Virus record (IMG/VR): IMGVR_UViG_3300010403_000025
Coordinates: 2,746 to 66,745 of that record
Length of the DNA stretch: 64,000 nucleotides
Source: a virus
Reading direction: 5' to 3' (one strand)
Shown one piece after another: positions 22,204-59,141 of this stretch. Under the pieces are notes generated by a model. That model was not told the origin of the DNA. It saw only the letters and a program-made list of their open reading frames with translations, and did no database searches. The translations under genes were made by a program, and so were the position numbers. Each line of letters opens with the position of its first letter. The first letter of the stretch is position 1.

Positions 22204-22308
22204 CAGGTTCCTACCAAGTTCGTTGAACGGCCTCGCGACTTCGCGTCGTCTCGTCGTTGCTCCTGACCTCCTTGGGATTTTCAAACAAATCCTTTCGGAG
22301 GTTTATCC

Positions 22309-22737
22309 ATGGCAACGTCAGCCTTTTTAGGGTCGCAAACCCTACTCAAAATAGGCAACGCGGCTTCACCAGAAGTCTTCACGACGATCGGTGAAGTCAC
22401 GAGCATCGGGGCAATCGGGCAACGGAACGACTTAGTCGAGGTAACTCACATGTTATCAACGGCTAAGGAGTACATAGGGGGCCTCCCGGACGGCCTCGAA
22501 ATGGACATCGTCTGTAATTATTTGCCGACGAACGTCCAGCAACAGACGGCGTATTTTAAAGTCGCGGCTGGAACTGTGGCTAACTTCCGAATGGTTATGC
22601 CTACAGGTGGTTCGAGTTTAACGTTCTCGTTCTCTGCACTCGTGATCGGATGGACTGTGGGGCCCTTAACTCCGAACGAAGCGTATAAGGTAACTTTTAC
22701 CCTAAAAATTTCTGGCGCGATTTCTGGCCCGAACTAG
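22309..22737 (+). CDS. Major tail tube protein
   Basis: FTTIGEVTSI...VEVTH..STAKEYIGGLPDG...TLKISG; strong GGAGG SD. Confidence 0.92.
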   Translation: MATSAFLGSQTLLKIGNAASPEVFTTIGEVTSIGAIGQRNDLVEVTHMLSTAKEYIGGLPDGLEMDIVCNYLPTNVQQQTAYFKVAAGTVANFRMVMPTGGSSLTFSFSALVIGWTVGPLTPNEAYKVTFTLKISGAISGPN

Positions 22738-22779
22738 AACTAGCGTTAGAGTTCTGGTTCTGGTGATATTGGCGACAGT

Positions 22780-23808
22780 TCATGATTTGTTCATGAACTG
22801 TCGCCTTCCACGACTCGGCACCGTTAGGGTATCTACGACATCCCATCCAGCATCAATGCGGTTTATCAGCGTGCTTGATCTGATGCCTGTCAGTTCAGAC
22901 CACTCCGATACACATAGAGTTTGACTCTGAAAGGTGATCATCCTAGACACTTCCCTATTTCGTGATTGTTGCTTTGGAGTGGCCCATCGGCAATTAGTTT
23001 TGCAGTAAGGTCCTGAGGGGTTTGGATATCGATCAAGCGAATATGTTGGCGACGGTGGGTCTCCCATATCGAGATAAAACTGCTCAAAGGATTCGCGCCA
23101 TGCGGCGCAGACCTCGATACCGCGCCCTCCATACCGATCGTAATTGGATGCATTCGGGTTATGGCATCTCTGCATCATTCCTTGATAGATCGAATATATT
23201 CGCGTCCGCGACTTCCCGTGCGTAGTTGTATAACGACTAATAGAATTGCTAACACTTTCTCGCGCAAGACATCCGCATGATTGGGTACGGCCAGCAGTAA
23301 TATTACTGACGAATGCCCTGATATGATTGCCGCAATCGCAGGCACACACAAACTCTGCAGGCTTCCTGTGTTTATGGTTGCTAGGAATTCTTAGCAATAC
23401 TTCAAGACGGCCAAATCGACGACCAATATAGTTGGTTGTTCGCTCGATGCATCCGCACGATCGCGTCGAGCCTGACAGCAAATTAGAACTTTGATGTTCC
23501 ATTAGTGTTCCGCAACTACAGAGACATTTATACAATGGTGACCCGTGTGCGTTGTTACCAACACACTCTAATGCTGTCCATTCACCAAATGTCTGCCCGG
23601 TCAAATCCTGATGTGCTCTGAGGCAACCACACGACAGAGTCTCTGCTCTAATAAGATGATCGATGCGTATAGACAACGTGGTGCCGCAATCGCACTCGCA
23701 TTGCCAATGCCGCTTGCCAATGTAGTTAATTGCCGTGATTTTACCGAAACGTTCTCCGGCTATATCTTTGAAGTTATGCGGGTGTTTGCTAGATTCCAGA
23801 TTAGCCAT
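22780..23808 (-). CDS. HNH-like free-standing endonuclease with CxCxCG/SCGC repeats
   Basis: Three G.RFG...C.CDCG...SCGC units, then RC.NPN...YGGRGI.VC..W...F..DMG...SLDR......Y...NCRWAT. Confidence 0.85.
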   Translation of the reverse strand: MANLESSKHPHNFKDIAGERFGKITAINYIGKRHWQCECDCGTTLSIRIDHLIRAETLSCGCLRAHQDLTGQTFGEWTALECVGNNAHGSPLYKCLCSCGTLMEHQSSNLLSGSTRSCGCIERTTNYIGRRFGRLEVLLRIPSNHKHRKPAEFVCACDCGNHIRAFVSNITAGRTQSCGCLARESVSNSISRYTTTHGKSRTRIYSIYQGMMQRCHNPNASNYDRYGGRGIEVCAAWRESFEQFYLDMGDPPSPTYSLDRYPNPSGPYCKTNCRWATPKQQSRNREVSRMITFQSQTLCVSEWSELTGIRSSTLINRIDAGWDVVDTLTVPSRGRRQFMNKS

Positions 23809-23906
23809 GTGGATCACTCCTTGTTAGTGACTATGTGGTTAGGCCCGCAGCGAGGTGACAACTCACTGTCGGGCCGCTTGTATTTTAACACGATAGGAAG
23901 AGGGAA

Positions 23907-24275
23907 ATGAGCAATAACGGTAACGGAACCGGCCGTATTAATTGGGCGGCGAAACGAAAAACAAAAGACATCTACATCGATGAGATCGAAGATACCGTCA
24001 AGATCCGGGCGTTATCCGCAAGTCAATTGGATGGTCTCAGTGACGAAGATCGAAGCAAGACCGTCACGCTGATGGCGTTGTCGATTGTGGATAAAGATCT
24101 GCAACGGATCTATACCACCGACGAAGATATGGCGGAACTCAAGGAAATGAGCATCGCCGTACGAAAGCAGATCAGTGATGAGATTGGTTTGCTCAACGGC
24201 TTCAGCAAGGAGGCGATTGATGAAGCCGCAAAAAAATCCGTAGCCAGCCAGAGTACCGATTCCGTTTCCGTCTAG
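23907..24275 (+). CDS. Tail assembly chaperone (G)
   Basis: Position after tail tube; ends ...LNG...EAAKK with slippery A AAA AAA at 24230-24236. Confidence 0.85.
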   Translation: MSNNGNGTGRINWAAKRKTKDIYIDEIEDTVKIRALSASQLDGLSDEDRSKTVTLMALSIVDKDLQRIYTTDEDMAELKEMSIAVRKQISDEIGLLNGFSKEAIDEAAKKSVASQSTDSVSV

Positions 24276-24589
24276 CTGGCTACCTTGGAAAGTCGTTGCG
24301 TGAAATCGATGCGATGCCTGCCTATGAATTGTTTGAGTGGATGGTTTACGAGTCCATCGAACCCTTTGGGGATCGGCGACGGGATTTTCAATTCGCACAA
24401 GTGATGTCGTTGATGCTCAATCTCAATCGCACGAAGAAGAGTGACAAGATGTGGAGTCCCGCAGACGTCATGCCGAAGTGGGATGCACCGCCACCGAAGC
24501 CGCAAACCCGCGAGGAGCAATTTCAAATGATGAAATTGTTCCAGGGATTTCAGGAAGCACAAGGGAATCCAGAAGCGAAGCCGAGTTAA
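23907..24589 (+). CDS. Tail assembly chaperone GT (programmed -1 frameshift product)
   Basis: The -1 frame after A7 reads IRSQPEYRFRFRLAGYLGKSLREIDAMPAYELFEW..Y..IEPFGD and joins ORF 24296..24589. Confidence 0.85.
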
Positions 24590-24849
24590 GGCTCGCAGGT
24601 GTTATCCAGTTCACACAGGGGCTGTCTATTACGTTCGGCAATGCGGCGAGCTGCATCATAGCGACGTGCTTCGGCTTGCCGTGCTAGTTCGACGTATTGT
24701 CGATTGAGATCTAATTGATGAGCGTATGCCGCTTTCGCCTCGTCATCCCAGCCCACAATCTTATCGGTGACGTGACTGATATTGAGCAGTAGCAGGACGA
24801 TCAAGAATCCAAGAGCAACCCCACCAGCAGTGATGAACATTTGTCTCAT
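24586..24849 (-). CDS. Antisense membrane protein resembling a tape-measure segment (candidate exclusion protein)
   Basis: N-terminal TM helix then GWDDEAKAAYAHQLDLNRQYVELARQAEA, 21/29 identical to TMP residues 208-236; TCGAAA-17-TATGCT-6-ATG leaderless promoter. Confidence 0.8.
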   Translation of the reverse strand: MRQMFITAGGVALGFLIVLLLLNISHVTDKIVGWDDEAKAAYAHQLDLNRQYVELARQAEARRYDAARRIAERNRQPLCELDNTCEP

Positions 24850-24869
24850 GTGCAGAGCATACGCTTAAT

Positions 24870-25307
24870 ATGGCGACTTTTCGATTAATCGGCTGGTCTG
24901 AGTTCGAAGCGCAATTGCAGGAACTCGACGCGAGTCTGCAACGTAAAGGACTCATTGAAGTTGCGGACGCTGCTGCCGATATTCTCGTGGATGCGGCCCG
25001 AGCCATAGCGCCGCGCAGTAAAGACGGTAGCCATATGGCAGACCGTATCAAGAAGAGAGTATCCAGCAAAGACAACGGCATTCATAGAGTGACAGTGGAT
25101 GTCGGGCCGGATGCGAAAGATTTTCACGCACTGTTTGTGGAGAAGGGCACGAGGGAACGGTTCTACAAAAAGGGACGTAAGGGAAGCTCATCAGGAGTAA
25201 TGCCGGCGCATCCCTTCATGGCACCGGCGTTTGACGCCAACGTGGACCGGATGACTCAGGCGATTCAAGAGAAGATGCAGGACATTATCGATCGGGTGAC
25301 GGCATAA
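24870..25307 (+). CDS. HK97 gp10-like tail/neck component
   Basis: ARAIAP...FHALFVEKGT...MPAHPFMAPAFD. Confidence 0.9.
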   Translation: MATFRLIGWSEFEAQLQELDASLQRKGLIEVADAAADILVDAARAIAPRSKDGSHMADRIKKRVSSKDNGIHRVTVDVGPDAKDFHALFVEKGTRERFYKKGRKGSSSGVMPAHPFMAPAFDANVDRMTQAIQEKMQDIIDRVTA

Positions 25308-28300
25308 ATGGCTGACGCAGTTCTGAAGAGTTTAGCGGTCCCGATAAGCCTATCGACGGATCAGTGGAGCGCGGGTTTACAGCGAATCCAACGGGACGCG
25401 AAGAGTCTAGAGAATGATCTGAAACCGCTGGCGGATCCTCTCAAATCGGCAGGCGTTGAGGCGAAGAAGACAGGCGAGTCGATGTCGAACTCCTTCCGCA
25501 ACGCCAGTACTGCCGCTAAAGATCAAGTCCGATGGCTCAATGAAGTTGAGGAGGCGACGAAAAGACTCGACGCTAAATTCGATGCTGCTGACAGATCCGT
25601 CCGCGCGTTCGTTAGAAGCACAGATGAGTTTTCTACTCTCGGCGATCCTCTCTCTGAGTTCGGCGATGATTTCTCTCAACTGGGTGCTGCCGTTGAGAGC
25701 AGCACGGCAAAAATAACGCACTCGTTCGGCGATGCCCATGCTGCTGCTTCTGGATTAGAGCAAATGCTGGGCGTTCATTTGCCGCGATCGGTGACGCGAT
25801 TTCTGGCGGAATCCGAAAGCATTGGCCCGATATTAGCCGGGGCGTTTAGCGCCGTTGCTGTCATTGGAATGATTCAGGTTTTAGAGCAACTGCCCGCCAT
25901 TTATAAAAAACTGGAAAGCGCGGTTACGGGATGGGACGACACAGCGAAGAAAGCCTATGACCACCAACTCGAGTTGAACAGACAACTTGTTGAGATCCTG
26001 CGTGATGCTGAGGCGGCCTACATCAAGTTGGACGAAGCAGCGGGACGCATTTCCGGAGTCGAGTCCACGAAACGTCAGATCGATCTATTAGAAACAGAAA
26101 AAGCCCGTCAGTTAGACATCATCAACGGTATCCAGGAAGAGATCAATGCGCGCACGAAGTTAGAAGAAACATCTAAGGCGCTCGGTGGTGTAGCTGCGCT
26201 AGGAGCGATGGCAGCGAATATTCTGACAAGCCGAGTGAGCATGTCGGAATTGACCGAGCAGATGAAGGTGGCTCAAGGGGAAGTTGATAAGTTAGAAAAA
26301 GCCATGCAGAAATTAGGCGCCGCGGATATGGCGGCGGCTAAAGCTCGGGATGAAGCCAAGGCTAGACGGGAAGTATCGGGCCTACTTAGCGAAATCAACT
26401 CACAGCAAGAAACAGCGCGGAAGGGAGCAGAAAAATATGCGGAGGCTCTAGCCAAAGCTGCTGACGCTGCCGCGAGATTAACTAATTTCCTTCGTGGCGC
26501 TGAGGGTGTTTTTGAGGCACCTATTGCGCGATTTGCTGACTTAAGTAGAGTGCTTCTTGCACTTGGACCGAAAGTGACAGCCATTCAGGGCGCGCTAGGA
26601 ACAACGCTCGACCCGCTTCTGACCGATGCTGAAGTCCTAGCTAATGCTTTAAAGGGCATTCAGGCGATGAAGGATAAAGATGCGGCAGATGCAGCGGCGC
26701 TTGCGGCCGCACGGGCTAAAGGTGATGCCGAGCGCCTAGCCGCAGCTAAGCAATTTCAAGCTCAAGGGCAGGCGGTCATTGATCACTTCATCGACGACAT
26801 TTCGCGCATGTTCACTTCGATGATTGCGCATGGGCAGAGCTTCTGGGAAGCCTTCAAGAATCTGGGTAAGTCTGCGGTCGCGGCAATAGCGGATACGTTC
26901 TTGAGCATCATGCTCCACAGCTTTTTAGATCCCTTTGCGAAGCAATTCGGGGAATGGCTCTCTAACATGAAGGACAGACTGTCATCCCTCATGAAGGGTG
27001 TCGATAAAGAAGGAAATCCCTTGAAGGGTTTTTTTGGGGGCCTCAACAAGGAGGGTGCTCCATTAACGGGTCTTAAAGGAACCGCATCGAAGGTTGCCAC
27101 CACAGCCGTGCAACATCTTCCCGAAATCGGTGCAGCGGTTGCCGGATTTGTTGTCCTGAACAAGCTCATCGGCAATTTCGCGCGCGAGCACAAGGCCTTG
27201 ACCATCGCCCTCACTGGCGGTGTCGGCGCCGTCATTGTTCTACTCAACGGTCTGCATAAATTGGCGAATGAATTTGTGCAGAAGATTCAGAATCCCTTCG
27301 CAAAGTCGGTTGACAGTTTATTCGAGAGTCTTTCCGAAGCGCAGCAAATGGGCTCTCTCACGGCGGATCAAGTGAAGCAGTCGCGTTTCTCGTTAGAGAA
27401 GATGTGGAAAGACTTCCAGGCGGAAGCCGCGAAGGCGAACAGCACGATCGGTGCGCAAGCGCTGGCCACCATGACACCGTTCATGAAGACGTGGCGTGAG
27501 TGGCTGGACGGACTCGATAAAGCAGCAATCGAATTGGAACGGATGGCCAAGGTTCAGGAGTTCATGGCGAAGGTTGGCGATGCGGCGAAAGATAGCGAAG
27601 CGCTGAATGAAGCAATTTCCAATCTGCGGGCGGCGGGAGTCGATGCGTCCGTCATTGTGAAATTCCTTGGCGGCGATGTGTTGACGATGGTGGATGCCAT
27701 GATGGCCTTGCATCAAGAAATCCCTGATGCCACGAAAGCGATTTACGGCTTGGCGAAAGCGACGGGCTTTATGTCGCGCGTAACGGATGCGGCGCAGGAT
27801 AGTGAAGCGTTGAATAACGCCATCGCCACATTACAGGGCGCGGGCGTTGAAGCCTCAGCCATCGTGAAGTTCTTGGGCGGCGATATTCTCTCGATGGTCG
27901 ATTCGATGAAGGCGTTACACATGGAGATTCCGGCTGGCATTGCGGGAATCTATGACCTCATCAGAGCCATCGAACGCATCGGTGAGATTGATAACGAACT
28001 CGAGAGCGTCTTTGAGCAACTATCGTCCGCGATTATTCAGAAACTCGACATTCTGGACGCGGGCATTGCAGAGGCTACGAAGAATATCGAGGACTGGTCG
28101 CGGGAACTCGACGATCTGACGAAGACGTTAGATGATGCCGCGCACTGGCAGAAGGTCTACGACGATGCGGTACGCGAGTCGGCGGCGAATTATGAAAAGC
28201 TGACCAACGAGCGGGTCTCGATTGAGAAGCGCATTCAAGATATCACTCAGGATATCGAGCGCGAGAAGTTGGTTGAGGCGGTCAAGAATGCGAAAGCCGT

Positions 28301-29291
28301 CGGTGCGGTCACCGAGACGCTGGTTAAAACCTTCGCGGGAATCACGAAGGGTGGCCATGCCTTTACCGCGGTAGCCACGACGATTGGCGAGTTGGGCGGC
28401 AATGCCTCAGCCGTCACGAAAGCCCAGAAAGAACTCGACGATTTCGACGCGGCGATTCGCGCACAACAACAAGCGGCGCGGCTTACTGAACTTGAAACAT
28501 TAAAGACCCGCTTGCCTGAAGTCATCGGGCTGCAGCGGCAGGCCTCCGAAGCTTGGGCAAATGCGTCCGTAACGGCGCAAGAGTCGATCGAAAAGCAGAA
28601 AGAAGAAACGCGGGCGCGCATCGCTTGGCTGAAGGGCGCGATAGGCGCAACCAAAGCGCACCTGGTCGAACTCAACAACGACAAGGAAGCTACGGAAGCT
28701 CTCGCCAAGGCGCTAGGGATTTCGCGTCGAAGTGAATGGGAGAAGATCAACGATACGATCCTTTCCCTTGAGGGACGAGTCGGAAAGCTCATTGAAGAAC
28801 GCGAGCAATTGGAACTGCTATTCCCGGCCGCTAAGGATGCGAACGAGAGTATTAAAGATCTCATCGCCACATTGAAGTCGGCGCTTATGACTCCAGCGGA
28901 AATCAAGCCGCCAGAAATCAAACTGCCGGAAGTAGCCGCAGTGCCGCCGACACCGGAGTTACCTACAATACCCGCCGCCACGTCTTTTCCTGGAGGATAC
29001 GAAGGCGGGACGGGCGATATCTTCGGTGGAATGTTCTGGAATGGAATCCCGAAGTTTCAGATGGGAACGGATTACGTCCCGTACACCGGACTGTTCCACC
29101 TCGAGAAGGGTGAGGCGGTAACGCCGGCAGATCAGAAGGGAAGCCAAGTAGAGGCACTGCTGCGGCGCCTCATCAGCGCAGTTGAAGCAGGGCACACGAT
29201 CACGATTGATGGAACGAAAATCGGCCGGGCGCAGAATCGGGCCGCACAGTCGGGCGGGTCCAGGTTATTGGCGACCGAGGTACGCCGATGA
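25308..29291 (+). CDS. Tape measure protein
   Basis: 1327 aa, Ala-rich helical/coiled coil with hydrophobic segments and C-terminal PKFQMGTDYVP.TGL..L.KGEAV.P; follows chaperones. Confidence 0.93.
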   Translation: MADAVLKSLAVPISLSTDQWSAGLQRIQRDAKSLENDLKPLADPLKSAGVEAKKTGESMSNSFRNASTAAKDQVRWLNEVEEATKRLDAKFDAADRSVRAFVRSTDEFSTLGDPLSEFGDDFSQLGAAVESSTAKITHSFGDAHAAASGLEQMLGVHLPRSVTRFLAESESIGPILAGAFSAVAVIGMIQVLEQLPAIYKKLESAVTGWDDTAKKAYDHQLELNRQLVEILRDAEAAYIKLDEAAGRISGVESTKRQIDLLETEKARQLDIINGIQEEINARTKLEETSKALGGVAALGAMAANILTSRVSMSELTEQMKVAQGEVDKLEKAMQKLGAADMAAAKARDEAKARREVSGLLSEINSQQETARKGAEKYAEALAKAADAAARLTNFLRGAEGVFEAPIARFADLSRVLLALGPKVTAIQGALGTTLDPLLTDAEVLANALKGIQAMKDKDAADAAALAAARAKGDAERLAAAKQFQAQGQAVIDHFIDDISRMFTSMIAHGQSFWEAFKNLGKSAVAAIADTFLSIMLHSFLDPFAKQFGEWLSNMKDRLSSLMKGVDKEGNPLKGFFGGLNKEGAPLTGLKGTASKVATTAVQHLPEIGAAVAGFVVLNKLIGNFAREHKALTIALTGGVGAVIVLLNGLHKLANEFVQKIQNPFAKSVDSLFESLSEAQQMGSLTADQVKQSRFSLEKMWKDFQAEAAKANSTIGAQALATMTPFMKTWREWLDGLDKAAIELERMAKVQEFMAKVGDAAKDSEALNEAISNLRAAGVDASVIVKFLGGDVLTMVDAMMALHQEIPDATKAIYGLAKATGFMSRVTDAAQDSEALNNAIATLQGAGVEASAIVKFLGGDILSMVDSMKALHMEIPAGIAGIYDLIRAIERIGEIDNELESVFEQLSSAIIQKLDILDAGIAEATKNIEDWSRELDDLTKTLDDAAHWQKVYDDAVRESAANYEKLTNERVSIEKRIQDITQDIEREKLVEAVKNAKAVGAVTETLVKTFAGITKGGHAFTAVATTIGELGGNASAVTKAQKELDDFDAAIRAQQQAARLTELETLKTRLPEVIGLQRQASEAWANASVTAQESIEKQKEETRARIAWLKGAIGATKAHLVELNNDKEATEALAKALGISRRSEWEKINDTILSLEGRVGKLIEEREQLELLFPAAKDANESIKDLIATLKSALMTPAEIKPPEIKLPEVAAVPPTPELPTIPAATSFPGGYEGGTGDIFGGMFWNGIPKFQMGTDYVPYTGLFHLEKGEAVTPADQKGSQVEALLRRLISAVEAGHTITIDGTKIGRAQNRAAQSGGSRLLATEVRR
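27561..27974 (+). repeat. 69-aa tandem duplication inside TMP
   Basis: FMAKVGDAAKDSEALNEAISNLRAAGVDASVIVKFLGGDVL... vs FMSRVTDAAQDSEALNNAIATLQGAGVEASAIVKFLGGDIL...; period 207 nt. Confidence 0.9.
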
Positions 29292-29683
29292 AGCGATGGG
29301 CATTGATTCTGTTCATCCTGCCGTACCCCGGTCAAATCACCGTGATCTCACCAACGTTGCCTGCTATCGCTCAAACATCCGGCGACACCATCGCGCCGAC
29401 AATCACATGGGCGACACCCAACAATGCGAGCTTTATTTCGAATGATGTGACAGTACGAGTTGCGGCGCGGGATAACGTCGCGGTCGTGCGTGTGGAACTC
29501 TTTCGCGCGGGGTATCCGAATCCCATTGTCGTCAACGGGGAAACACAGTTACCCCGAGCGACAACGTTTTTGCGCTGGCAAGCTGCCGCTATTCCCATAG
29601 GCACCTATGTGTTGACGGTATTCGCCTATGACGCTGCGGGTAATCGAAGCCTTCCTGCCATGGTCACCGTGATTCGAAAATGA
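29288..29683 (+). CDS. Exported Ig-like (Big) domain protein
   Basis: Hydrophobic N-terminus; DTIAPTI...ARDNVAVVRVE...GTYVLTVFAYDAAGN. Confidence 0.75.
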   Translation: MKRWALILFILPYPGQITVISPTLPAIAQTSGDTIAPTITWATPNNASFISNDVTVRVAARDNVAVVRVELFRAGYPNPIVVNGETQLPRATTFLRWQAAAIPIGTYVLTVFAYDAAGNRSLPAMVTVIRK

Positions 29684-50565: not shown

Positions 50566-51024
50566 GTGATTAGCTCACGCCTCATTTCTGACCTCGATCC
50601 GGACGCGGCAACCATCTGCAACGCGCAGGTCTTCAAGTGTCATCGGGCTGGAATTGAATTGCTCATCACGTCCACCTATCGAGACTATTTGGCGCAAGAT
50701 CAACTCTACGCGATCGGGCGTACGATTCAGCCCGACCGCCGTCCCGTGACAAATGCTCGCGCCGGACAGTCGTGGCACAATTTCCGCGCGGCCTGGGATG
50801 CCGTCCCGCTCATTGGTGGCAAATGTGTATGGGACGAGCGCGACCCGTTATGGAAAGAAGTCGTCAGGATCGGGAAAGAATGCGGCGCCGAAGCTGGTGC
50901 CGATTGGCCATTGTTCCGCGATCTACCCCACTTCCAATTTCTGCCAAAACTACGGCAAGGTGTGCTGAGTCTCGCTGAAGCACGCACCCGTTTCGATGAA
51001 CACGGCACGATCTTTACCGCTTAG
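50566..51024 (+). CDS. Endolysin, M15 family peptidase (L-Ala-D-Glu type)
   Basis: STYR....QD.LYA.GRT...VTNARAGQSWHNF..AWD...DLPHFQ. Confidence 0.92.
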   Translation: MISSRLISDLDPDAATICNAQVFKCHRAGIELLITSTYRDYLAQDQLYAIGRTIQPDRRPVTNARAGQSWHNFRAAWDAVPLIGGKCVWDERDPLWKEVVRIGKECGAEAGADWPLFRDLPHFQFLPKLRQGVLSLAEARTRFDEHGTIFTA

Positions 51025-57968: not shown

Positions 57969-59141
57969 TTAGCTGGTCGTTCCTTTCGGTGTAGTGATTT
58001 CGGTAGCGACTCCACCGGCTTCGCCTCTCAGGGTTTTCCCGTAGAGCTCGAATTGCTTCATCGCGAGAGACAAGTAATCCCGCGACGTGTGGATGTATTT
58101 GGCACACATCTTCGGATTGGAGTGGCCCAAGGCTTTCATCAAGACAAAGACATCGCCGTTGGTGGACTCGGCCAGACGAGTGGCGAAGGTGTGACGGAGC
58201 GAGTGCAGGACAAATTCGCGGGGGAATTTAATTTCGGGCTGAAGCACGTTCGCGTGAGGGCGACGTTGACCCCGTGTATAACCGGTAGAATTCCTCTGCC
58301 GCTGTGGTGCGGCCAGCCCATTCCTCAGTTTCGTGTGGAGATTGCCCAATGCCGTCCTTGTGTAGTGCCCACCCTTCAATCCCGGAAATACCCACGTGGA
58401 ATCGTGGTGGACGGCAAAGCACAATTCGAATACTTGCTTCGTTCTTTCAGTTTGCGGAAGGGATCGTTGGGCATTGGGCGTTTTGCCACTCCTGATGGTG
58501 ACGACGTATCGGTCTATGTCGCCCTTCCGCAAAGATACCGCCTCCTCGGGCCTCAGTCCCAAGTCGAGCATCAAGATCGCCGCCTGCTTCAAGGGATACG
58601 GTGCCAAGGCCAAGTACGCCTTCTCCATTTCGCCGGTCAACACAAAGTCGCGTTGATGCTCACCGGGCAAGGAACTGACTTTCACGTCGTCCATCAGCTT
58701 GCAGCGTTTGGCAAAAATCAACGCCTTTCGCAACACACGGAGCTCGGCATTGATCGACGCAATGGCCATTTTCTTCTGAAGCCGCGCGTCCTTGTAGGCC
58801 TGGATCGACAACTCGGTGAGTTTATCCAGCGTCAACGTGCTGAACGGTTCATGGGTACACAAACAGCGGACCCGTTCGGTGTAGAAGCGCAGCGTGGTGG
58901 GTTTCTTGATGTCTTGCTTCTGTTTGTCGAGAAACGGGCCCTTGAGAAAGGCCACGAGCGTGGGCGTAGGTTCTTTCTGGATCAGGCCGACGCCGGTGAG
59001 CGCCAGGTTGGTGCGGTATGCGGCGAGCCAAGCCTTCGCTTGTTCATGGTTAGTGAGATGCGTGGATTGTTGATGGCGAGTCTTCTTGTACCAAAAATCT
59101 GCGTGCCACACACGGCCGCGTTTGACGAGTCCAGCGCTCAT
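57969..59141 (-). CDS. int: Tyrosine integrase
   Basis: N-terminal arm-binding KRGRVW; LGLRPEE, GKT, HSLRHTFAT, LGHS.....KY.H. Confidence 0.95.
   Translation of the reverse strand: MSAGLVKRGRVWHADFWYKKTRHQQSTHLTNHEQAKAWLAAYRTNLALTGVGLIQKEPTPTLVAFLKGPFLDKQKQDIKKPTTLRFYTERVRCLCTHEPFSTLTLDKLTELSIQAYKDARLQKKMAIASINAELRVLRKALIFAKRCKLMDDVKVSSLPGEHQRDFVLTGEMEKAYLALAPYPLKQAAILMLDLGLRPEEAVSLRKGDIDRYVVTIRSGKTPNAQRSLPQTERTKQVFELCFAVHHDSTWVFPGLKGGHYTRTALGNLHTKLRNGLAAPQRQRNSTGYTRGQRRPHANVLQPEIKFPREFVLHSLRHTFATRLAESTNGDVFVLMKALGHSNPKMCAKYIHTSRDYLSLAMKQFELYGKTLRGEAGGVATEITTPKGTTS

What the first reader, a model, noticed from the sequence alone, without database searches (positions are those of the whole stretch)
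24586..26015. Antisense membrane gene that mimics a segment of the phage's own tape measure protein
Seen: the 87-aa minus-strand ORF 24586..24849 has a TM helix followed by GWDDEAKAAYAHQLDLNRQYVELARQAEA (24667-24753). TMP residues 208-236 (25929-26015) read GWDDTAKKAYDHQLELNRQLVEILRDAEA and also follow a hydrophobic helix. Identity is 21/29 with no gaps, yet 16 of the 20 degenerate codons at identical residues differ, so the match looks maintained at protein level rather than being a fresh DNA duplication. The gene has its own leaderless promoter (TCGAAA-17-TATGCT-6-ATG) opposite to the late operon, as expected for lysogen expression. Established: HK97 gp15 lies between the chaperone and TMP genes and is an inner-membrane superinfection-exclusion protein acting on TMP-dependent DNA entry. 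Inference: this protein is a dominant-negative TMP decoy that joins or blocks the TMP injection channel, or its host receptor, and co-evolves with the cognate TMP. I know of no described exclusion protein that is a sequence mimic of its TMP.
Basis: partly seen in the sequence, partly recalled or inferred. Interest (0 to 1): 0.9.

Follow-up and report, generated by a model that had tools for sequence, protein, structure and literature searches.

The report
Membrane mini-protein copying tape-measure module
A temperate soil-type phage carries, on the opposite strand of its tail operon, a real gene for a small membrane protein that is an old stand-alone copy of the membrane-helix module of tail tape measure proteins, which suggests, without proof, that it blocks DNA entry by rival phages through mimicry.

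Summary
ORF 24586-24849(-) (87 aa) matches the phage's tape measure protein (TMP) at BLASTP E 2e-12; 21/29 ungapped identities, and 16 of 20 degenerate identical codons differ.

The gene is real. Against the one related contig, 15 of 18 differences are third-position (dN/dS 0.03). Five distant small homologues exist among 1.84 billion representatives.

New here: the five other small proteins alone align with the TMP family's most conserved core (hydrophobic helix, linker, GWD helix) at hhalign 97.5%, E 7.7e-12, 57 ungapped columns. So this is a rare stand-alone paralogue family of a TMP module, not a mimic private to this phage.

Co-evolution with the cognate TMP is not shown. The small proteins form one clade (100/99), and a cognate clade is rejected on the whole module (p 0.0007). 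The helix alone is unresolved. Contexts of the other homologues could not be fetched.

The promoter is weak (8/12). Expression, topology and function are untested; exclusion by mimicry is inference.

The scan's unchecked notes report similar TMP-copying mini-proteins on other, sequence-unrelated phage DNA. Five literature searches found no published case.

The parts
24586..24849 (-). Gene for the 87-aa small membrane protein (P0001); its stop overlaps the stop of tail chaperone gene T, and its start lies 20 nt from the start of the divergent gp10-like gene
   Evidence: ORF and translation. Against L003 there are 18 nt differences, 15 at third codon positions, dN/dS 0.03. Five distant small homologues.
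24772..24840 (-). Predicted transmembrane helix (about residues 4-26)
   Evidence: Kyte-Doolittle 19-residue mean up to 2.6. AlphaFold2 helix 2-31. Family-invariant A8, G14, N23, D29.
24667..24753 (-). GWD helix segment (residues 33-61) matching TMP 208-236
   Evidence: 21/29 identical, 16/20 degenerate identical codons differ. BLASTP E 2e-12. Invariant G33 W34 D35 K39 L48 N49 Y52 in the small family.
24856..24861 (-). -10-like hexamer TATGCT, 6 nt before the ATG (candidate leaderless promoter, not shown to work)
   Evidence: Sequence. Not called by the promoter scan. The same geometry occurs at 4 of 9 antisense small genes against 3.5% background. Identical in L003.
24879..24884 (-). -35-like hexamer TCGAAA (4/6), inside the gp10-like coding sequence
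   Evidence: Sequence. 8/12 in all, below the scan threshold.
25308..29291 (+). Tape measure protein gene (1327 aa)
   Evidence: phrog_167, E 3.9e-11. Relatives P0009-P0011 and 27 viral loci.
25830..26000 (+). TMP membrane module (residues 175-231: hydrophobic helix, linker, GWD helix) homologous to the small-protein family
   Evidence: hhalign of A5 against A4: 97.5%, E 7.7e-12, 57 ungapped columns. Invariant TMP-family columns cluster at residues 139-224. Helix, GWD break, helix in the AlphaFold2 model; the GWD helix has pLDDT 72-84, the hydrophobic helix only 44-60.
23907..24589 (+). Tail assembly chaperone genes G (23907-24275) and T (24296-24589), upstream context
   Evidence: phrog_344. 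Pfam Phage_tail_T, E 4.6e-19.
24870..25307 (+). HK97-gp10-like tail completion gene, divergent neighbour of the small gene, displaced to just before the TMP gene
   Evidence: PF04883, E 1.4e-8. phrog_5, E 8.6e-23. In L011 the gp10-like ORF lies before the major tail gene.
57972..59141 (-). Tyrosine integrase (indicates a temperate phage)
   Evidence: PF00589, E 9.4e-16.

Best explanation
SHOWN. ORF 24586-24849(-) is a real gene for a small protein made of an N-terminal hydrophobic helix, a short linker and a long helix that starts at G-W-D. It belongs to a very rare family of small proteins with one origin. That family is a stand-alone paralogue of the most conserved core of a tape-measure-protein family (hydrophobic helix, linker, GWD helix). 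The same key positions (G, W, K, Y, N) are conserved in both families. The phage has an integrase, and the gene lies antisense between the tail chaperone genes and the TMP gene.

INFERRED. The protein is made from the prophage, independently of the late operon, and sits in the cytoplasmic membrane. Its N-terminus probably faces inward, because basic residues precede the helix in all family members. There it presents a copy of the TMP module to incoming tails of kin phages. It either joins the TMP assembly that should form the DNA conduit or occupies whatever the TMP module binds, so DNA entry fails. That would be superinfection exclusion by self-derived mimicry, working like HK97 gp15 but with a different origin.
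For: - Gene reality: 15 of 18 differences from L003 are at third codon positions, dN/dS 0.03, as low as the neighbouring structural genes at 0.02-0.10.
- Family: 5 small homologues (61-146 aa, E 2e-8 to 3e-4) among 1.84 billion representatives. They share the helix and the motif.
- Homology independent of this phage: the 5 other small proteins against 11 TMP modules give hhalign 97.5%, E 7.7e-12, 57 ungapped columns.
- One origin: the small proteins form one clade at 100/99 support.
- Same constrained positions: G33/W34/K39/N49 are invariant in the small family (Y42 is H in P0008). G208/W209 are invariant and K214/Y217/N224 nearly invariant in TMPs.
- Protein-level maintenance: 4 of 20 same codons against 7.8 expected by chance.
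- Own TMP is the best match of the 13 TMP types compared: 21/29 against 19 for L003 and 15 or fewer for the rest.
- Fold: helix 2-31, break at GWD, helix 36-75. The TMP model has the same break.
- Setting: integrase; the slot between chaperone and TMP genes, as for HK97 gp15, an inner-membrane exclusion protein that tail/TMP swaps escape (passages read).
- Codon usage: GC3 is 0.477 against 0.575-0.593 in the late genes.
- A -10-like hexamer lies 6 nt before the ATG, a geometry recurring at 4 of 9 antisense small genes against 3.5% background.
Against: - No evidence of expression, membrane location, topology or any effect on infection.
- The promoter match is weak (8/12) and no promoter or terminator was called. 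The gene is wedged with 0 and 20 nt of spacing, unlike a classic moron with its own terminator.
- Of 29 sources with a related TMP (window, L003, 27 others), only the window and L003 carry the small gene within the fetched flanks. Most phages with this TMP module therefore do without it.
- No sign of tracking of the cognate TMP.
- The family is tiny: 6 clusters in 5.8 billion proteins.
- The host is unknown, so even the envelope type is unknown.
- The GC3 difference rests on 87 codons.
- The antisense genes counted were pre-selected by the first-stage reader, partly for that feature.
Confidence: 0.4

Rival explanations
1. Allele-specific decoy: the small protein co-evolves residue by residue with its own phage's TMP, so that it excludes only phages carrying the cognate TMP type.
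For: P0001 matches its own TMP (21/29) better than any other TMP compared (19 for L003, 15 or fewer for the rest). It also matches its own TMP better than it matches any other small-family member (17 or fewer). The two motif sites where the window TMP differs from L003 (E229, A236) are sites where L003 equals the outgroup P0009 and the window TMP equals the small protein. On the GWD helix alone a cognate clade is not rejected (p 0.17).
Against: On the whole module (64 columns) the cognate clade is rejected (p-AU 0.0007), and all 7 small proteins form one clade at 100/99. All the other small proteins also match the window-type TMP best among those available (13-15 of 29, and 14 of 25 for the shorter P0008), so that TMP may simply lie near the family's root. 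In L003 the small protein changed at L55R while the TMP did not change there, and the TMP's two motif differences have no counterpart in the small protein. Only one pair plus one close relative has genomic context, so the test has almost no power.
Confidence: 0.15
2. A TMP-module paralogue that serves the phage's own cycle rather than exclusion. Possible roles are a small hole-forming or lysis-timing membrane protein (holin- or antiholin-like), or a membrane factor that handles the hydrophobic TMP module during tail assembly or genome entry.
For: It is small, has a single hydrophobic helix and a highly charged C-terminal part (9 K+R and 11 D+E in 55 residues), which is the general build of holins. 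The TMP module it copies is thought to insert into membranes. The tight wedging with neighbouring late genes and the absence of a called promoter or terminator fit a long-resident gene.
Against: It lies on the strand opposite to the whole late operon. The endolysin-like gene (Peptidase_M15_4, 50566-51021) is 25 kb away. Most phages with this TMP family lack the gene (27 of 29 sources), so it is not needed for assembly or entry. It matches no PHROG or Pfam holin family.
Confidence: 0.2
3. Counter-defence decoy: the membrane-anchored TMP module titrates a host or prophage defence that recognises a conserved TMP feature at the membrane.
For: Defences that recognise TMPs exist. SNIPE associates with the lambda TMP during injection, and its DUF4041 domain probably binds a conserved siphovirus TMP feature (PMC13190303, passages). 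Tab recognises the TMP of invading phages (PMC10884400, passages). The copied module is the most conserved part of this TMP family.
Against: A decoy must be present before injection, which an incoming phage cannot arrange. Expressed from a prophage, it would protect rival phages. No defence gene was found beside it (for the protein itself; neighbours are tail genes).
Confidence: 0.07
4. Non-functional relic: an inverted fragment of a TMP gene left by recombination that happens to keep an open frame.
For: It lies next to a displaced gp10-like gene and near a mobile HNH endonuclease gene that is absent from L003, so the region has been rearranged.
Against: dN/dS is 0.03, with 15 of 18 changes at third positions. 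Five distant homologues of similar size and build have a conserved start just before the helix. Synonymous sites against the TMP are saturated while the protein motif is kept.
Confidence: 0.03

Closest known systems
HK97 gp15 moron (superinfection exclusion; Cumby et al. 2012, reviewed in PMC3594210, passages read; also passages of PMC10883804)
   Same: [quoted passage not shown] For gp15, exclusion acts after adsorption, and swapping tail tube and TMP genes escapes it.
   Different: By those passages, gp15 derives from the bacterial YebO family, not from a TMP. P0001 has no Pfam hit at E <= 0.01 and is instead homologous to a TMP module. It lies on the opposite strand, with no called promoter or terminator. 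Its function is untested.
Ltp of Streptococcus thermophilus phage TP-J34 (exclusion lipoprotein whose block is overcome by TMP changes; abstract of PMC3952083 in the listing, and a passage of PMC10883804)
   Same: A prophage protein at the cell surface or membrane that is thought to act on the incoming TMP.
   Different: Ltp is a lipoprotein. P0001 has no Cys before residue 78, hence no lipobox. Ltp is not described as a copy of a TMP segment.
P22 SieA (PMC10883804, abstract and passages)
   Same: An inner-membrane prophage protein that blocks DNA transport across the inner membrane by acting on the proteins that build the injection conduit.
   Different: SieA acts on podophage ejection proteins gp16 and gp20. 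No sequence likeness of SieA to its targets is reported in the passages read.
SNIPE N-terminal regions (PMC13190303, passages)
   Same: A membrane-located defence that exploits the site of TMP-mediated injection. By those passages, some homologues carry N-terminal regions homologous to a phage protein (the P22 tail needle), which is a precedent for phage-derived targeting parts.
   Different: SNIPE is a host nuclease with GIY-YIG and DUF4041 domains. P0001 has no enzymatic domain and no PADLOC hit. The copied protein there is not a TMP.
Earlier unchecked notes of this scan on TMP-copying mini-proteins and lipoproteins in Bacteroidota/Prevotella phages and an E. coli prophage
   Same: The same theme: a small membrane-anchored protein copies the stretch next to the membrane helix of the phage's own TMP.
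   Different: No sequence relation to the present family was found: look-ups by sequence and by place returned nothing. Those notes claim variants that change with the TMP allele, which I could not show here.

Membership tests
Stand-alone paralogue family of the TMP membrane module (defined here) | Profile-level homology to the TMP-family core over helix, linker and GWD helix | tested here: met
   hhalign of A5 (small proteins without P0001/P0003) against A4 (11 TMP modules): 97.5%, E 7.7e-12, 57 ungapped columns. The A1 profile hits the TMPs of 12 further loci at E < 0.01.
Stand-alone paralogue family of the TMP membrane module (defined here) | Small proteins form one group apart from TMPs | tested here: met
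   7 small proteins form one side of a branch at 100/99 on 64 columns. On the 31-column helix alone this is unresolved.
Tape measure protein | A long protein (hundreds of residues) encoded after the G/T chaperones, on the late strand | tested here: not met
   87 aa, minus strand. The true TMP is the 1327-aa gene at 25308.
HK97 gp15 / YebO family | Sequence membership in the YebO family | tested here: not met
   No Pfam, PHROG or NCBIfam family for P0001. That a YebO model is in Pfam is recalled, not checked.
HK97 gp15 / YebO family | Small membrane protein encoded between the tail chaperone and TMP genes of a temperate phage | tested here: met
   Gene order G, T, small ORF, gp10-like, TMP. Integrase. 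Hydrophobic helix.
HK97 gp15 / YebO family | Expressed from the prophage and blocks DNA entry after adsorption | not testable with these tools
   No RNA run was listed.
Moron (an independent transcription unit added to a late operon) | Own promoter and terminator, and composition unlike its neighbours | tested here: inconclusive
   0 promoters and 0 terminators called in 23800-25500. A weak -10-like hexamer 6 nt before the ATG, with recurring geometry. GC3 0.477 against 0.575-0.593, on 87 codons only.
Ltp-type exclusion lipoproteins | Signal peptide with a lipobox cysteine | tested here: not met
   No Cys in residues 1-77.
Holin | Small membrane protein with a charged C-terminus, encoded next to the endolysin on the late strand | tested here: not met
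   The build fits. However, the gene is antisense, lies 25 kb from the Peptidase_M15_4 gene at 50566-51021, and matches no holin family.
Known anti-phage defence families (PADLOC-DB 2.0) | Match to a defence-protein model | tested here: not met
   0 families for P0001, P0005, P0006 and P0008. P0004 has only chance-level hits at E 0.006 and 0.03.

The most novel reading that the evidence does not exclude
Phages repeatedly turn a piece of their own injection machinery into a weapon against kin. A membrane-anchored, stand-alone copy of the TMP's membrane module acts as a dominant-negative subunit or competitor that jams the DNA conduit of incoming phages with a related TMP. The family found here would be one of several independent origins of this self-mimicry type of superinfection exclusion, alongside the sequence-unrelated cases noted elsewhere in this scan. 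The copied module would mark the part of the TMP that does the membrane step.
Probability: 0.3. Interest if true: 0.85.

Novelty: new variant of a known kind. Interest (0 to 1): 0.62.

Why it matters
How siphophage DNA crosses the cytoplasmic membrane, and which part of the TMP does it, is still poorly understood. Known injection-stage exclusion proteins (HK97 gp15, Ltp, SieA) have no known molecular mechanism.

A small protein that is a recognisable paralogue of the most conserved TMP module gives a concrete, testable mechanism: competition or poisoning by a self-derived copy. It also points to residues (G, W, K, Y, N of the GWD helix) that are constrained in the same way in both proteins.

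If true, it would be a bacterial-virus counterpart of captured viral genes that block entry of related viruses in animals (that analogy is recalled, not checked). It would also offer a way to predict exclusion specificity from sequence.

Limits are that the family is rare, the host is uncultured and unknown, and nothing functional has been shown.

Tried and rejected
Genomic context of the distant small homologues P0004-P0008:
- Scans with the family alignment found only the one contig already known in viral contigs and metagenome contigs, and nothing in genome contigs.
- Their contigs are short, 629-6090 nt.
- The cognate-TMP test therefore could not be made.

Degenerate DNA motif scan of viral contigs: 6 stretches. 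Only L011 (a TMP) and the known contig were real. The other 4 were chance matches with stops.

Complex prediction, TMP module (A4) with the small protein (A1): no verdict, score 0.01 against a mark of 0.32, controls not run. This is no evidence either way.

The look-up of sequencing runs, kind rna, for 22300-29300: no RNA holder was listed.

Other searches that gave nothing:
- tblastn of P0001 and of the TMP module against 50,697 phage records: no match.
- ESM Atlas: best score 0.77, below any useful level.
- PDB sequence search: only chance-level hits. The TMP module hit a TatB homologue at E 0.14, and the small family hit a TMP chain at E 0.67.
- Pfam, PHROGs, PADLOC and NCBIfam: no family for P0001.
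- Profile search of 5.8 billion proteins with A1: the same 6 clusters.

Self-BLAST of small ORFs against long ORFs in 33 sources: only the window and L003 show a small ORF copying a TMP segment of this kind.

Rejected ideas:
- A recent duplication or gene conversion, because synonymous sites are saturated.
- A relic fragment, because dN/dS is 0.03.
- A holin next to the lysin.

Literature: five full-text searches listed no paper describing an exclusion protein that copies a TMP segment. Subscription-only papers and supplements were not searchable.


Full report
WHAT THE WINDOW IS. The window lies in a 66.7-kb IMG/VR virus record that CheckV rates 100% complete. It encodes a capsid protein, a portal, a head completion protein and a tail module on the plus strand. 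It also encodes a tyrosine integrase at 57972-59141(-) (PF00589, E 9.4e-16), so the phage is temperate. The host is unknown. No cultured phage in a 50,697-record collection matches the small protein or the TMP module.

LOCAL GENE ORDER.
- Major tail protein, 22309-22737(+).
- HNH endonuclease, 22780-23817(-).
- Tail chaperone G, 23907-24275(+).
- Chaperone T, 24296-24589(+) (Pfam Phage_tail_T).
- The flagged ORF, 24586-24849(-).
- An HK97-gp10-like tail completion gene, 24870-25307(+).
- The TMP gene, 25308-29291(+).

The flagged ORF is wedged in tightly. Its stop overlaps the stop of T, and its ATG lies 20 nt from the ATG of the divergent gp10-like gene.

P0001 (87 aa) against the 1327-aa TMP gives BLASTP E 2e-12 with 25/44 identical. 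The ungapped 29-residue segment has 21 identities. Of the 20 identical residues with degenerate codons, only 4 share the codon. That is no more than the 7.8 expected from independent draws, and nucleotide identity is 50/87. The likeness is therefore old and is kept at the protein level.

THE ORF IS A REAL GENE.
- One related contig (L003, 26.9 kb, about 89% nucleotide identity across this region) carries the same arrangement but lacks the HNH gene.
- The two copies of the ORF differ at 18 of 261 nucleotides. Fifteen are third codon positions and two are synonymous first positions, leaving 2 amino-acid changes.
- dN/dS is 0.03, against 0.02-0.10 for the neighbouring structural genes.
- A full HMMER search of 1.84 billion representative proteins found five further small proteins (61-146 aa, 40-50% identical, E 2e-8 to 3e-4).
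- These share the N-terminal hydrophobic helix (invariant A8, G14, N23, D29) and the motif G-W-D..K..Y......L-N..Y.
- A profile search of 5.8 billion proteins added none, so the family is very rare.
- It matches no family in Pfam, PHROGs, PADLOC or NCBIfam.
- AlphaFold2 models it as two helices, 2-31 and 36-75, broken at V-G-W-D (pLDDT 74).

WHAT IT COPIES.
- TMP relatives were collected: three proteins, 27 viral loci and one genome locus from a Limnocylindrales MAG.
- In their alignment the invariant columns cluster at TMP residues 139-224. The GWD motif closes this core: G208 and W209 are invariant, and K214, Y217 and N224 nearly so.
- The copied segment therefore belongs to the most conserved part of a whole TMP family. 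It is not a peculiarity of this phage.
- The decisive test left out the window's own small protein and its close relative. The other five small proteins, as a profile, align with a profile of 11 TMP modules at 97.5% probability, E 7.7e-12, over 57 ungapped columns.
- Those columns run from the start of the hydrophobic helix through the linker into the GWD helix, TMP residues 175-231.
- The AlphaFold2 model of the TMP segment shows the same helix, GWD break and helix. Only the GWD helix is confident (pLDDT 72-84), and the hydrophobic helix is at 44-60.
- The small proteins are therefore stand-alone paralogues of the TMP membrane module, constrained at the same positions.

DOES IT TRACK ITS OWN TMP?

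For:
- P0001 matches its own TMP (21/29) better than the L003 TMP (19) or any of 11 other TMP types (15 or fewer). It also matches its own TMP better than any other small-family member (17 or fewer).
- The window and L003 TMPs differ at just two sites in the conserved block. At both, L003 equals the next relative P0009, and the window TMP equals the small protein.

Against:
- On 64 columns the seven small proteins form one clade (100/99). A tree holding the window and L003 small proteins together with their TMPs is rejected (p-AU 0.0007).
- All the other small proteins also match the window-type TMP best among those available (13-15 of 29, and 14 of 25 for the shorter P0008), so that TMP may simply sit near the root of the family.
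- The L003 small protein has L55R in the motif with no matching TMP change.

On the GWD helix alone (31 columns) neither arrangement is rejected (p 0.31 and 0.17). With one pair and one close relative in context, co-evolution is neither shown nor excluded.

Of 29 sources with a related TMP, only the window and L003 have the small gene within the fetched flanks.

EXPRESSION SIGNALS.
- The stated promoter matches 8 of 12 consensus positions, and the scan called no promoter or terminator in 23800-25500.
- Absence of a Shine-Dalgarno motif is not special. Only 15 of 38 genes checked have even a loose one.
- However, a TAnnnT hexamer ending 6-7 nt before the ATG occurs at 4 of 9 antisense small genes of this phage, this one included. 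The background is 74 of 2088 ATGs, or 3.5%. Those genes were pre-selected by the first-stage reader, so the contrast is inflated.
- GC3 of the gene (0.477) is below that of the late genes (0.575-0.593) and close to that of the mobile HNH gene (0.454).
- No RNA data could be had.

MECHANISM. The shown facts are that this is a selected small membrane-type protein, a paralogue of the conserved TMP module, antisense in the tail operon of a temperate phage. Basic residues precede the helix in every family member (read). By the positive-inside rule this suggests N-in, with the GWD helix on the outer face, where an incoming TMP arrives.

The inference is that it interferes with TMP-dependent DNA entry by joining or competing with the TMP module. 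HK97 gp15 occupies the same genomic slot, is an inner-membrane exclusion protein, and is escaped by swapping tail and TMP genes (passages in PMC3594210 and PMC10883804). But gp15 derives from bacterial YebO, so P0001 may work like gp15 without being a member of that family.

I give this reading about 0.4. Rivals are:
- a role in the phage's own cycle, 0.2;
- the allele-specific form of the decoy, 0.15, which overlaps the best reading;
- a counter-defence decoy against TMP-sensing defences such as SNIPE or Tab (passages), 0.07;
- a relic, 0.03.

NOVELTY. Five full-text searches listed no paper on an exclusion protein that copies a TMP segment. Supplements and subscription journals were not covered.

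This scan's own earlier notes, unchecked, describe similar TMP-copying mini-proteins or lipoproteins in Bacteroidota and Prevotella phages and in an E. coli prophage. Look-ups by sequence and by place found no relation to the present family. This looks like a further, independent instance in a different phage lineage.

I class it as a new variant of a known kind, namely a small membrane protein in the tail-operon slot that is a candidate for injection-stage exclusion. The new element is its demonstrable descent from the TMP's own conserved membrane module.

Noticed in passing
window 22780-23817 (-): An HNH endonuclease gene (phrog_374, E 4.7e-92) sits between the major tail and chaperone G genes. 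It is absent from the otherwise collinear relative L003, where those two genes are 78 nt apart. This is a presence/absence pattern typical of a mobile homing-type gene. Its GC3 is 0.454, against about 0.58 for the late genes.
   Followed up: partly
window 24870-25307 (+): The HK97-gp10-like tail completion gene lies between chaperone T and the TMP gene, divergent from the small ORF. In L011, a phage with a related TMP, a gp10-like ORF lies in the usual place before the major tail gene. The pair (small ORF plus gp10-like gene) may have moved together.
   Followed up: partly
window 27579-27712 and 27786-27919 (+): There is an internal tandem duplication in the TMP of about 69 residues, seen as two near-repeats in the translation. 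It also shows as cross-matches of 73-75% nucleotide identity between the window and L003.
   Followed up: no
window 11517, 13578, 14903, 24849 (minus-strand ATGs): A TAnnnT hexamer (TATAAT, TAGAAT, TATACT, TATGCT) ends 6-7 nt before the ATG of 4 of 9 antisense small genes, against 3.5% of all ATGs in the window. This hints at leaderless transcripts for the antisense genes of this phage.
   Followed up: partly
window, 38 gene starts across 2561-60397: Only 15 of 38 gene starts have even a loose Shine-Dalgarno-like 4-mer upstream, so the unknown host probably relies little on SD-led initiation.
   Followed up: no
window 25992-25994 and 26013-26015 (TMP codons 229 and 236): These are the only two differences between the window and L003 TMPs within the conserved block. 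At both, L003 equals the next relative P0009 (Q, I) and the window TMP equals the small protein (E, A). This is suggestive of adaptation towards the small protein, but it rests on two sites.
   Followed up: partly
L014 10312-10713 (+): A 134-aa ORF downstream of the TMP gene shares 16 of 31 residues with the last 30 residues of that TMP (E 3.7e-6). This is a different kind of TMP-segment copy, on the same strand.
   Followed up: no
window 50566-51021 (+): An endolysin-like Peptidase_M15_4 / VanY gene marks the lysis region, 25 kb from the finding.
   Followed up: no
window 25659-26114 (TMP module profile A4): The best, non-significant PDB sequence hit of the TMP module profile is a TatB homologue (E 0.14). 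TatB is another membrane helix followed by an amphipathic helix. This is a likeness of build only.
   Followed up: no
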